DNA of 64,000 nucleotides, taken from Gemmatimonadota bacterium. GTDB taxonomy: Bacteria > Latescibacterota > UBA2968. The notes beneath the pieces are model-generated. The model was not told the origin of the DNA. It saw nothing but the letters and a program-made list of their open reading frames with translations, and did no database searches. Shown here piece by piece: positions 39,917 to 41,908 of this stretch (positions are counted from its first letter, which is position 1; every line of letters starts with the position of its first letter). The DNA lies in contig JAPOXY010000135.1 of the NCBI GenBank assembly GCA_026706845.1, forward strand, positions 5,266 to 69,265. The letters run 5' to 3'. The position numbers and the translations under genes are program-made.

Positions 39917-41908
39917 TTAAAAGTTAGCGGACAGTTCGATTCTCTTCATCACCCGCTCCAATACCCACACCCTGACGATGCCATCCCGCTGCCCACCAAG
40001 CCCGCTTGTGTAATTGTTCTTTTCGAGTTGCGCATTGTGTTCCGGTCCGAACATCTCCTGTTTATTTATGGCCTGCTCCAGGGCGGGAATAAGCGGTTTC
40101 ATGGGCTGGAGTTCTTCGCGACTGCGGTATGACAGATAGGCACCGGCTCGTAGCCTCGCCCAGAGGATATCGCTCGACAGCGCGCGCTCAAAAGCAGGCA
40201 GGGCCAGGGCGCCTTCGCCTGCCCGCACCAGATAGTCCCCAGCGGCCAGGCTGACGCTGATTGAGGGATCGTCAAGAAGGGGGGACAGGCGCTCGATCAT
40301 CTCGCGTTCCACACCGAGCGAGCAAAGGCCGGTAACAGCCCAGAAACGCACGGCGCAGTCGGGATCACCAAGTCGTTTTGCGAGTTCTTCCTTTGCTTCG
40401 TCACCCAGGCGCGCCAGGTCTGCTGTTTCCAGAATACGCTCGTAATTATCACAGTGCGCCCCGACTGCATGGCTAATGCCGTTGTACTGCTCTGCTCGCG
40501 CAGCAATTTCTGGTTCATCGATCAAGCCTAGATCGCGGGTCTCGATCATCCAGCCGAACAGGTTCTGTCGCAACCCATCCTTCACATTGCTGTAAGCAGG
40601 ATCATCTGCCAGGTTATTTATCTCTTCGGGATCGTTCTCGATGTCATACAACTCTTCGGCGGGTTTGTGATCCTGCCAGATTTGGAACTGCTGGTAGTGC
40701 TCAGGCAACCCGTCCTGTTTGATCATGACCGGCGGGCCGAGCATCAGAAATACGCCGTCGGGGTCGTGGACCTTCTGTTTGCCCGGTAGGCAAGAGGTCT
40801 CCCAGAAGGCGCGTTCCGGAGTTCCTTCCTCTGGCACTGTGGCAAAGAATCCGCCGTCTGGATAGAACGAAGCGTATGGCTGGTGGGGGAGGAAGTTGCG
40901 GAAGTAACGGTATTTTTTTGTGCGGATTGTGCGGATTACTTCTGGGTTGTTGTCCAGCCGATCCCTGGCACTGCAGACGAATTCTCTCGGTTCATCTCTG
41001 TTGGGACCGCACAGGTTGCGGCTCTGGATGTGTTCGGCAATAGGGATGCCTGATAGCTGCAGGGTCGTCGCGCAGAGGTCCATGTGCAGGACGAGTTCAT
41101 CAACCGCACTGCCGGGTTCTGCCGGGGATAGGTGCTGATACTTCTCCGGGAATCGCATGATCAGCGGGATATTCAGTCCGTCGTCGTAGGCGTGGATTTT
41201 GCCTCGGGGATAACCCGTGCCATGGTCTCCCCAATAGACCACAATAGTGTCTTCACTGTGCCCCTGCGCTTCAAGCTCGTCCAGGATCTCTCCTACTTGC
41301 TTATCGACGTTGGTAAGGGCGTCGTAGAAGAGCGCCATTCGTTCGCGGAACAGGGGGGTGTCGGGAACGAAGCTCGGAACCGGCACATCATTCGGGTCGT
41401 GCAACTCGTCGTCGCTCAAGAGCGAGGAACGCGCTTTCCGCGCATCCTCGGGCGTCAGTTTGAATACACTGGCGTGGGAACTGCCCAGTCTGTAATACAT
41501 GAAGAACGGCTTGTCTTCAGGGCGATTCTCCCAGAAATCTTCAGCGTTGTAATACTGTTCACGCTCCTCTTTGGAGACGTATAGATTGATGTCATTATCC
41601 GGCTGCGTGCAGGCGTAACCGGCGTCCGTCAGCATTGTGTTTAACAACTCAACCCCTTCAGGGCGGATGATCGCGCTGCGGTGATGATGCGTGCCCAGTG
41701 TCGTCGGATGCATGCCGGTATAGATGCCCGTGCGCGACGGTGAGCAGATTGGGCCAGCGGTGAACGCGTTGGTGTAGCGCACACCTTCTGCCGATAGGCG
41801 GTCAATATTCGGGGTATGCGCGTATTGATCTCCGTAGCAACATTATTTCCAGGCTCTGGAGTCGTGATTACTGATCAAGTGGAAATTGGGTCTGTCTTGT
41901 TTTGTCAT
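39917..41908 (-). pseudogene. Sulfatase interrupted by an in-frame TAA (41843..41845) after residue 21, carrying a C-terminal HEAT/PBS-lyase-repeat extension. Downstream of the stop, the ORF runs 621 codons from a GTG.
   Basis: The ATG at 41908 with a GGAGAA Shine-Dalgarno gives '[60 protein letters not shown]...' in one frame. C-terminal 'LGDPDCAVRFWAVTGLCSLG...LLDDPSISVSLAAGDYLVRAG' is HEAT-like. Confidence 0.55.

What the first reader, a model, noticed from the sequence alone, without database searches (positions are those of the whole stretch)
39917..41908. Sulfatase with an in-frame TAA after codon 21 and a C-terminal HEAT-repeat extension
The ATG at 41908 (GGAGAA Shine-Dalgarno) opens '[21 protein letters not shown]'. 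This is followed by TAA (41843..41845). The same frame then continues '[39 protein letters not shown]...' for 621 more codons. Either a nonsense mutation has pseudogenised the gene, or it is a sequencing error, or the remainder is re-initiated from the GTG at 41782 and lacks the N-terminal metal site. The first metal site is also atypical (NHD instead of DD). The C-terminal ~120 aa are HEAT/PBS-lyase-like repeats ('DPDCAVRFWAVTGLCSLG'), an unusual appendage for an S1 sulfatase that suggests protein-protein docking.
Basis: seen in the sequence. Interest (0 to 1): 0.55.

Follow-up and report, generated by a model that had tools for sequence, protein, structure and literature searches.

The report
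Probable assembly-error stop in sulfatase gene
A sulfatase gene of a sponge-associated bacterium looks broken by a stop codon, but the stop lies in a 39-base patch of six odd substitutions exactly where an independent assembly of the same strain shows normal bases and a gap, so it is most likely an assembly error (at most a very recent knockout) in an ordinary enzyme of a known type.

Summary
The sequence is as described: ATG at 41908, in-frame TAA at 41845-41843 (codon 22), and an open frame to 39917. The gene is an S1_8-like formylglycine sulfatase with a C-terminal HEAT-like helical domain. More than 1000 full-length (~660 aa) homologs share this architecture, as does the solved S1_8C structure (PDB 9bba). 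The "NHD" motif is the family norm.

The stop is one of six private transversions packed into 39 nt (41842-41880). All six hit residues that are invariant in 13 orthologs and 6 metagenome contigs. The other 640 codons show intact-gene purifying selection (dN/dS 0.079).

An independent ENA assembly of the same strain differs at only 9 other sites in ~33 kb. It reads wild type at three of the six positions, and its only N-gap in the ~33 kb compared lies over the other three, including the TAA. No donor sequence, template switch or recoding explains the patch.

Best reading (~0.65): a short-read assembly artefact, in which an unresolved spot was bridged by error-laden sequence. Rival (~0.27): a real, very recent knockout allele coexisting with the wild type.

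NCBI annotates the gene from Met92 (MCY3870490.1), a product lacking the catalytic Cys. Interest is low.

The parts
39917..41908 (-). Conceptual full-length gene (663 codons plus stop, with an in-frame TAA at codon 22): S1_8-like formylglycine sulfatase with a C-terminal HEAT-like domain and no signal peptide
   Evidence: Translation. Pfam Sulfatase 1.4e-37, SGSH_C, HEAT_2. 92% identical to the intact 665-aa P0001. 95.3% nt identity to the ortholog in OZ242311.1.
41843..41845 (-). In-frame TAA (codon 22), replacing TAC (Tyr) of all close orthologs
   Evidence: The position is Y/L/M in 92 family members.
41842..41880 (-). 39-nt patch holding six private transversions, written ortholog>window on the coding strand: 41880 T>A (L10H), 41877 G>T (W11L), 41855 C>A (S18R), 41846 C>A (N21K), 41843 C>A (Y22stop), 41842 G>T (G23C). 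It also holds one strain-shared synonymous C>T at 41867.
   Evidence: Six of the gene's eight private amino-acid changes fall in 14 codons (P ~1.6e-6 after correction). There are 6 private differences in 40 nt against 0.24 expected.
41835..41848 (-). Stretch represented by a 10-N scaffold gap in the independent ENA assembly of the same strain. It covers the TAA and the two flanking mutated codons.
   Evidence: L068 positions 14703-14712. This is the only N-run in the 16.5 kb held for L068.
41861..41866 (-). Codons H15-D16, the N-terminal metal-site motif (the 'NHD' of the finding)
   Evidence: D16 is invariant. Position 15 is H in 74 and E in 15 of 92 homologs. It aligns to 'ED' of S1_8C.
41732..41746 (-). 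CSPSR formylglycine motif (codons 55-59), intact
   Evidence: C55, S56 and R59 are invariant in 92 and in 42 homologs.
41780..41782 (-). First in-frame restart codon after the stop (GTG, V43). Only a GAAGG lies 1-2 nt upstream, so the ribosome-binding-site spacing is poor.
   Evidence: The 621-aa product is not on record in the protein collection.
41633..41635 (-). ATG of Met92, the start used in the public annotation (572-aa product MCY3870490.1)
   Evidence: P0135 is 100% identical to residues 92-663.
39926..40600 (-). C-terminal all-helical HEAT-like solenoid (residues ~437-661). The Pfam HEAT_2 core lies at 40160-40387.
   Evidence: Pfam. AlphaFold model helices 437-661. alphaRep hits. Foldseek match to S1_8C 9bba covers both domains.
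41917..41922 (-). GGAGAA Shine-Dalgarno-like sequence, 8 nt upstream of the ATG
   Evidence: Read directly.

Best explanation
The locus encodes a cytoplasmic S1_8-type formylglycine-dependent sulfatase. It has a CSPSR motif, an H-D N-terminal metal motif and a GDHG motif, fused to a HEAT-like alpha-solenoid that is typical of its family. It is one of 13 sulfatase genes in a polysaccharide-degradation island of a sponge-associated Latescibacterota bacterium.

The in-frame TAA is most likely not in the organism's genome. It is part of a 39-nt patch of six transversions, most plausibly introduced when a short-read metagenome assembler bridged a coverage hole or unresolved spot. The bridging sequence would come from one or a few low-quality reads. 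The wild-type dead-end branch on each side would then have been clipped.

Shown: the patch, its statistics, the wild-type flank and gap in an independent assembly, and intact-gene selection elsewhere in the gene. Inferred: the assembler mechanism, and that both assemblies derive from the same or closely related Illumina read sets.
For: - All 13 orthologs, 6 metagenome contigs and every fetched cluster member that covers the stretch (14 of 15; internally deleted P0130 lacks it) read PN[FI]LWISNHD[SA]SAWNYGCYGD. The window reads [18 protein letters not shown].
- Six of the gene's eight private amino-acid changes fall in codons 10-23 (P ~1.6e-6).
- Outside the patch dN/dS is 0.079, against 0.080-0.115 for intact pairs.
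- ENA scaffold_936 from the same strain reads wild type at nt 29, 32 and 54. Its only N-run in the 16.5 kb held replaces nt 61-74, which contain the TAA. Outside the patch the ENA scaffolds differ from the window at 2 sites (scaffold_936, 16.5 kb) and at 4 SNPs plus one 3-nt indel (scaffold_1953, 16.6 kb).
- The patch keeps the strain-specific synonymous AAT at nt 42. It is therefore the strain's own sequence plus six changes, not a foreign donor.
- All six changes are transversions (C>A x3, G>T x2, T>A x1). By contrast, 6 of 9 private changes elsewhere in the gene and 4 of 6 SNPs between the assemblies are transitions.
- No direct or inverted donor exists within +/-600 nt or in the 64 kb.
- This is the only disrupted gene among about 40 ORFs, and coding density is 92%.
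- The dataset type is Illumina assembled with metaSPAdes (PMC8163846).
- Contig-end errors are visible in the sister assembly: L061 has a non-conservative L610R change 28 nt from its end.
Against: - No reads could be inspected.
- The TAA itself falls in the other assembly's gap. The wild-type state of nt 63, 66 and 67 in this strain is therefore inferred, not observed.
- It is not proven that the window and the ENA scaffold come from the same read set. The two Logan SRR10996932 contigs are 100% identical to the window but do not cover the patch.
- Strain heterogeneity does exist in the sample (isolated SNPs and one 3-nt indel between assemblies). A real minor allele could equally have broken the other assembly at this spot.
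- Assemblers normally discard k-mers from reads with many errors.
- Real decay of this gene family, by internal deletion, is seen in related genomes.
Confidence: 0.65

Rival explanations
1. The allele is real: a very recent knockout (nascent pseudogene). A single clustered mutational event, for example an error-prone repair patch, changed six bases in 39 nt of the strain's own sequence. It destroyed strand beta1, the loop following the metal site, and the reading frame's continuity. The allele coexists with the wild type in the symbiont population, and that heterogeneity broke the other assembly at this spot.
For: - The sequence is in the deposited assembly, and its annotation (MCY3870490.1, starting at Met92) is consistent with it.
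- Strain heterogeneity exists in the sample, and the sister assembly breaks at another variant site, 40080.
- With 13 sulfatase paralogs in 64 kb, loss of one is tolerable.
- Deleted remnants of this same gene occur in related genomes (L005:11808-12281; P0123-P0125, P0130, P0131).
- Six of seven changes in the patch are nonsynonymous, as expected for unselected mutations.
Against: - Six transversions within 39 nt and no decay in the other 640 codons (dN/dS 0.079) require an extraordinary single event.
- The natural variants seen between the assemblies are isolated and mostly transitions.
- The independent assembly reads wild type at three of the six sites.
- The mutant 29-mer is absent from JGI metagenomes, while 6 wild-type contigs were found.
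- No other protein in the 214-member cluster that was inspected shows these residues.
Confidence: 0.27
2. The gene is an old pseudogene that has been decaying neutrally since a nonsense mutation.
For: There is an in-frame stop, and six nonsynonymous changes at invariant residues lie near it.
Against: - Outside codons 9-24, dN/dS is 0.079 against L017, identical to intact-intact pairs.
- There are only 2 private amino-acid changes in 640 codons, no frameshifts and no further stops.
- Patch divergence is about 15% against about 0.5% private change elsewhere in the gene.
Confidence: 0.02
3. A functional product is still made. This could happen by re-initiation at GTG 41782 or Met92, or by read-through or recoding of the TAA.
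For: An ORF of 621 aa remains open from the GTG. NCBI annotates a 572-aa protein from Met92.
Against: - The V43 product lacks strand beta1 (residues 8-14 of the model) and invariant D16. The M92 product also lacks the invariant C55 of CSPSR.
- The GTG has no properly spaced ribosome-binding site.
- TAA is an ordinary stop in this window, used by 17 of 40 ORFs including this gene's own end.
- No suppressor tRNA or RNA element was found.
- Read-through would still leave five substitutions at invariant residues.
Confidence: 0.03
4. The patch was copied from another sequence. Candidate routes are gene conversion from a diverged paralog or remnant, quasi-palindrome template switching, or a small inversion.
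For: Clustered substitutions are the classic signature of such events. A second, internally deleted copy of the gene exists in a related genome.
Against: - No direct or inverted k-mer (k>=8 covering >=2 mutated sites) occurs within +/-600 nt. None with k>=11 occurs in the 64 kb.
- No second match with up to 3 mismatches exists in the window.
- All remnants and paralogs seen carry the wild-type motif.
- The patch retains the strain-specific synonymous base at nt 42.
- The reverse complement of the ancestral segment does not resemble the patch (checked by hand).
Confidence: 0.03

Closest known systems
S1_8C sulfatase of Pseudoalteromonas distincta U2A (PDB 9bba/9bep), an exo-galactose-2-sulfate 2-O-sulfohydrolase of the lambda-carrageenan cascade (PMC12549532)
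   Same: It is the best sequence match among solved structures (E 8.5e-56). It is also the best fold match, covering both the catalytic and the C-terminal helical domains (TM 0.70/0.78, ~670 aligned columns). Both proteins have the Cys-type FGly motif, an acidic/His-Asp N-terminal metal motif, a length of about 650 aa, and a gene location among polysaccharide lyases/hydrolases and other sulfatases.
   Different: Identity is only about 22-30%. S1_8C is secreted, whereas the window protein has no signal peptide. S1_8C has E-D where this family mostly has H-D. The substrate of the Latescibacterota clade is unknown. The window copy carries the in-frame stop.
Human N-sulfoglucosamine sulfohydrolase (sulfamidase, SGSH; PDB 4mhx/4miv), the founding S1_8 member
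   Same: Both share the sulfatase core and the SGSH_C subdomain (Pfam PF16347; Foldseek TM 0.51/0.69).
   Different: SGSH has no helical C-terminal extension, has a canonical DD metal motif, and is a lysosomal N-sulfatase.
HEAT-like / PBS-lyase HEAT-like repeats (Pfam HEAT_2 PF13646; designed alphaRep proteins such as PDB 4zv6)
   Same: Residues ~487-583 match HEAT_2 and alphaRep consensus repeats at E ~1e-11. The model shows stacked helical hairpins.
   Different: Here the repeats are a covalent C-terminal domain of an enzyme. No partner or function is known. The Pfam score of the window copy is 0.1 bit below the curated cutoff.
Assembly-derived false pseudogenes in short-read MAGs
   Same: A localized cluster of substitutions coincides with a gap in a sister assembly. 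The rest of the gene and its neighbours are clean. The public annotation compensates with a late start codon.
   Different: Substitution-only clusters are less common assembly errors than indels or chimeric joins. The reads were not available to prove the case.

Membership tests
S1 formylglycine-dependent sulfatases (Pfam PF00884, SulfAtlas S1) | Sulfatase domain match above the curated threshold | tested here: met
   PF00884 scores 130.1 bits against a cutoff of 25, E 1.4e-37.
S1 formylglycine-dependent sulfatases (Pfam PF00884, SulfAtlas S1) | C/S-x-P/A-x-R motif carrying the residue converted to formylglycine | tested here: met
   CSPSR occupies codons 55-59 (window 41746-41732). C55, S56 and R59 are invariant in 92 homologs.
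S1 formylglycine-dependent sulfatases (Pfam PF00884, SulfAtlas S1) | N-terminal acidic metal ligands after strand beta1 (canonical D-D) | tested here: inconclusive
   The motif is H15-D16. D16 is invariant, and the first position is H (74) or E (15) family-wide. It aligns with E-D of S1_8C. Whether His binds the metal was not testable.
S1 formylglycine-dependent sulfatases (Pfam PF00884, SulfAtlas S1) | Second metal/catalytic block (G-D-H-G, Lys) in the core | tested here: met
   The window has WGDHGTGYPRGK. In the 42-sequence alignment W226, H229, G232, R235 and K237 are invariant, and D228 and G230 are nearly invariant (>=90%).
S1 formylglycine-dependent sulfatases (Pfam PF00884, SulfAtlas S1) | Uninterrupted ORF spanning beta1, the metal site and the FGly motif | tested here: not met
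   In this assembly there is a TAA at codon 22. It is probably an artefact.
S1 formylglycine-dependent sulfatases (Pfam PF00884, SulfAtlas S1) | FGly maturation and sulfate-ester hydrolysis | not testable with these tools
   No FGE or anSME gene lies in the 64 kb. The activity needs biochemistry.
SulfAtlas subfamily S1_8 | Closest relatives are S1_8 members, and the SGSH_C subdomain is present | tested here: met
   The top five PDB sequence hits are S1_8A/B/C (E 1e-52 to 1e-56), followed by sulfamidase. The Foldseek ranking is the same. PF16347 scores 50.8 bits.
SulfAtlas subfamily S1_8 | Assignment by the SulfAtlas subfamily HMMs or phylogeny | not testable with these tools
HEAT_2 / PBS-lyase HEAT-like repeat proteins | Repeat match and alpha-solenoid of helical hairpins | tested here: met
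   PF13646 scores 27.6 bits against a 27.7 cutoff in the window copy, and the family is listed for most homologs. alphaRep hits reach E 2.9e-11. The model has 11 helices between residues 465 and 661 at pLDDT mostly >90.
Genuine pseudogene | The lesion is reproducible in independent data from the same strain | tested here: not met
   ENA scaffold_936 reads wild type at 3 of the 6 patch sites and has Ns over the stop. The mutant 29-mer is absent from metagenome contigs.
Genuine pseudogene | Relaxed selection or further lesions in the rest of the gene | tested here: not met
   dN/dS for codons 25 to the end is 0.079, against 0.080-0.115 for intact pairs. There are no other stops or frameshifts.

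The most novel reading that the evidence does not exclude
The patch is real. In a single event, a localized 'mutation shower' of six transversions within 39 nt knocked out the active-site N-terminus of one sulfatase paralog. It affected part of a sponge-symbiont population, which now carries wild-type and knockout alleles side by side. This would be a natural example of clustered multi-nucleotide mutagenesis inactivating a gene in an uncultivated symbiont.
Probability: 0.2. Interest if true: 0.35.

Novelty: not a real feature. Interest (0 to 1): 0.12.

Why it matters
Biologically it matters little. The gene is an ordinary member of a widespread, uncharacterised clade of S1_8-like sulfatases with a HEAT-like tail, and it is one of 13 sulfatases in this island.

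Practically it is a caution. The public protein MCY3870490.1 (572 aa, starting at Met92) is a truncated annotation that lacks the catalytic cysteine. It should not be used as a family representative, and this locus should not be counted as gene loss without read support.

The family itself is conserved across Latescibacterota, Poribacteria, Gemmatimonadota, Chloroflexota and Planctomycetota. It is cytoplasmic and has a His-Asp metal motif and a HEAT-like domain. It remains functionally uncharacterised and could merit biochemical study, but that is independent of the flagged stop codon.

Tried and rejected
- **Donor search for the patch.** There was no second match in the window with up to 3 mismatches. 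The partial second copy in L005 is an internally deleted remnant with the wild-type motif, so it is not a donor.
- **Small inversion.** The mutated positions are roughly symmetric around nt 48. However, the reverse complement of the ancestral segment does not resemble the patch (by hand).
- **DGR-type mutagenesis.** The ancestral bases at the changed sites are T, G, C, C, C, G, so the changes are not adenine-specific. The site is an N-terminal catalytic strand, and the Pfam scans of the window's ORFs found no reverse transcriptase.
- **Recoding.** TAA ends 17 of 40 ORFs. No tRNA or Rfam element was found.
- **General assembly noise.** The only other small private cluster (43132-43143) lies in a naturally variable loop, is mostly transitions and keeps the frame.
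- **Finding the window's own contig or reads.**
  - Exact look-ups of the 621-, 598-, 576- and 529-aa forms and of the wild-type-reverted 663-aa protein all failed.
  - Only the Met92 form is on record, and it has no DNA context.
  - Logan contigs of SRR10996932 match the window 100% but do not cover the patch.
  - Look-ups of 25881-27266 and 9280-11166 found nothing.
- **Promoter/terminator scan.** It showed nothing relevant.
- **NCBIfam.** It gave only sub-threshold generic sulfatase hits.
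Full report
**Observation.**
- An ATG lies at 41908 on the minus strand, preceded by GGAGAA with an 8-nt spacer.
- It opens [21 protein letters not shown], and codon 22 is TAA (41845-41843).
- The same frame then stays open to the TAA at 39919-39917.
- Small corrections: 641 sense codons follow the stop. The 621 aa figure is the ORF from the GTG at 41782.

**What the gene is.**
- Pfam gives Sulfatase (1.4e-37), SGSH_C and a borderline HEAT_2 match (27.6 vs 27.7 bits).
- A search of 5.8 billion proteins returned 1094 hits with E <= 1e-10. 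The best 120 are mostly full-length (~650-690 aa) and nearly all carry the sulfatase plus HEAT_2 architecture. They come from Latescibacterota, Poribacteria, Gemmatimonadota, Chloroflexota and Planctomycetota.
- The closest solved structures are the S1_8 sulfatases of the Pseudoalteromonas distincta lambda-carrageenan cascade (E 1e-52 to 1e-56). These are exo-galactose-2-sulfate 2-O-sulfohydrolases (PMC12549532).
- An AlphaFold model of the 92%-identical intact ortholog P0001 (pLDDT 86.8, pTM 0.90) has the sulfatase core followed by a helical solenoid at residues ~437-661.
- Foldseek matches S1_8C (9bba, 651 aa) over both domains (TM 0.70/0.78). S1_8A, S1_8B and human sulfamidase match only the core (TM 0.50-0.54).
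- Residues 487-557 also hit designed HEAT-like alphaRep proteins (E ~1e-11).
- The HEAT-like tail is therefore real, but it is a family-wide trait that is already present in a solved structure.
- 'NHD' is likewise the family norm. Position 15 is H in 74 and E in 15 of 92 homologs, and D16 is invariant.
- The CSPSR formylglycine motif and the GDHG block are intact.
- The protein has no signal peptide.

**Context.**
- The 64 kb is a polysaccharide-degradation island.
  - It holds 13 sulfatase genes, 8 PhyH-family dioxygenase genes, polysaccharide lyases, a BNR_4 protein, rhamnose mutarotase and an RND efflux system.
  - Coding density is 92%, and this gene is the only one of about 40 that is disrupted.
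- The organism is a Latescibacterota bacterium of the kind found in sponges. Orthologous loci lie on complete MAG chromosomes, and the best is OZ242311.1 at 95.3% nt identity.

**The stop in comparative view.** All 13 orthologous loci, six independent metagenome contigs and all fetched members of the protein cluster that cover this stretch (internally deleted P0130 lacks it) read PN[FI]LWISNHD[SA]SAWNYGCYGD. The window reads [18 protein letters not shown].

At the DNA level there are seven substitutions in nt 29-67 of the gene:
- Six are nonsynonymous: L10H, W11L, S18R, N21K, Y22stop and G23C.
- These six hit positions conserved across the whole family. For example, W11 is W in 86 of 89 aligned homologs and G23 is G in 90 of 92.
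- The seventh is synonymous (AAC>AAT).
- Six of the gene's eight private amino-acid changes lie in 14 codons (corrected P ~1.6e-6).
- The 40-nt density is 6 private differences against 0.24 expected.

Outside the patch the gene behaves as intact. dN/dS against L017 is 0.079, compared with 0.080-0.115 between intact orthologs, and there are no other stops or frameshifts. Long-term neutral decay is therefore excluded. The patch is either a single event or an artefact.

**Independent assemblies of the same strain.**
- Exact-protein look-ups found two ENA scaffolds (ERZ23496111, ROBB21-1_SAMN13943208, scaffolds 936 and 1953) and two Logan contigs of SRR10996932.
  - The Logan contigs (8.5 kb) are 100% identical to the window but do not cover the patch.
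  - Outside the patch the ENA scaffolds differ from the window only at isolated sites over ~33 kb. These are 6 SNPs, mostly transitions, and one 3-nt indel.
- At the sulfatase 5' end, scaffold_936 reads ...AATTTCCTCTGGATCAGTAATCACGACTCCAGCGCCTGG-NNNNNNNNNN-CGGAGATCAA....
  - It is wild type at three of the six positions (window 41880, 41877, 41855).
  - It shares the strain-specific synonymous AAT.
  - Its only N-run in the 16.5 kb held replaces the 14 nt (41848-41835) that contain the other three changes and the TAA.
- The patch is thus the strain's own sequence plus six transversions (C>A x3, G>T x2, T>A x1). It lies exactly at a spot that another assembler could not resolve.
- The underlying study used Illumina reads assembled with metaSPAdes (PMC8163846).
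- The window's own source is an NCBI MAG contig of 96,457 nt. Its annotation starts the gene at Met92 (MCY3870490.1, 572 aa), which is 100% identical to residues 92-663. That product lacks strand beta1, the H15-D16 site and Cys55.

**Interpretation.** I favour an assembly artefact, at about 0.65.
- *Inferred mechanism.* Wild-type reads stop on both sides of a coverage hole. One or a few error-laden reads bridge it. The assembler keeps the through-path, which diverges at the first error (nt 29) and rejoins after the last (nt 67), and it clips the wild-type dead ends.
- *What this accounts for.* It explains the sharp boundaries of the patch, the transversion-only spectrum, the unselected coding effects, the clean remainder of the gene, and the gap in the sister assembly.
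- *Main rival (~0.27).* The allele is real, arose very recently through one clustered mutational event, and coexists with the wild type. Strain heterogeneity in the sample and deletion remnants of this gene in related genomes keep this reading alive. It needs an exceptional mutational event, and three of the six sites are contradicted by the other assembly.
- *Minor readings.* Together they have a few per cent.
  - An old pseudogene is contradicted.
  - A copied patch lacks any donor.
  - Functional re-initiation would yield products without essential residues.
  - Recoding is unlikely because TAA is a normal stop and no RNA elements were found.

**Novelty and interest.** The flagged anomaly is most likely not a biological feature. 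If real, it is an ordinary nascent pseudogene in a highly redundant gene family. The architecture (S1_8-like sulfatase with a HEAT-like C-terminal domain) is known structurally, although its function and this clade's substrate are unstudied. Interest is low (0.12). The practical value is to flag a truncated public annotation and to warn against scoring this locus as gene loss.

**What would settle it.** Read pile-up at 41835-41880 in SRR10996932, k-mer abundances of the two haplotypes, or PCR/long-read sequencing of the junction.

Noticed in passing
window 55526-57799 (-): A single 757-aa ORF combines ECF-type sigma-70 regions 2 and 4, ankyrin repeats and an ATP-synt_ab-type NTPase domain. This is an unusual fusion for a sigma factor. 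The same gene (742 aa as called) is present on the ENA scaffold of the same strain.
   Followed up: partly
window 8290-9132, 15670-16518, 20549-21391, 30509-31603, 36405-37322(+), 37399-38301, 48569-50803, 57929-58735: Eight PhyH-family (Fe/2-oxoglutarate dioxygenase-like) genes are interleaved with 13 sulfatase genes in 64 kb. The sulfatase-PhyH pairing recurs in the orthologous loci (L001). The role of PhyH proteins in sulfated-glycan breakdown is unexplained.
   Followed up: no
window 48569-50803 (-): A 744-aa protein fuses an alginate-lyase domain (PF05426, 4e-86) to a C-terminal PhyH domain.
   Followed up: no
L005:11808-12281 (OX638329.1); proteins P0123-P0125, P0130, P0131: Related Latescibacterota genomes carry internally deleted remnants of this same sulfatase-HEAT gene. 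One form joins the N-terminal ~137 aa to the last ~17 aa; P0130 (289 aa) has a different internal deletion near the N-terminus. One such form is seen on 7 contigs. All keep the wild-type N-terminal motif.
   Followed up: partly
window 39926-41909 versus 33422-34904: The sulfatase-HEAT gene is markedly more divergent between Latescibacterota genomes (88-95% nt) than a neighbouring sulfatase gene (97-98%). Synteny around it is mosaic.
   Followed up: no
window 41861-41866 (codons 15-16) and family alignment: The first of the two canonical N-terminal metal-binding Asp residues is His in 74 of 89 aligned family members and Glu in the remaining 15. This hints at a different metal preference in this clade.
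   Followed up: partly
window 40048-40107 and 40080: ENA scaffolds 1953 and 936 end inside this gene and overlap by 60 nt. They carry a G/T difference at 40080, which makes L610R in scaffold_1953, 28 nt from its end. This is either a strain variant or a contig-end error that broke that assembly.
   Followed up: partly
window 26046-26258 (sulfatase 25881-27266): The window and ENA scaffold_1953 differ by a 3-nt indel and two SNPs, giving a 461-aa versus a 462-aa product. This indicates strain heterogeneity within the sample.
   Followed up: no
window 43419-46259, 46451-48550, 28958-30427, 9280-11166(+), 54351-55334: Large conserved ORFs (946, 699, 489, 628 and 327 aa) in the glycan-degradation island have no Pfam match.
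   Followed up: no
whole window / public records: There is a taxonomic label conflict. The window's annotated protein and its nearest NCBI relatives are labelled 'Gemmatimonadetes bacterium', while the orthologous complete MAG chromosomes are labelled Latescibacterota.
   Followed up: no
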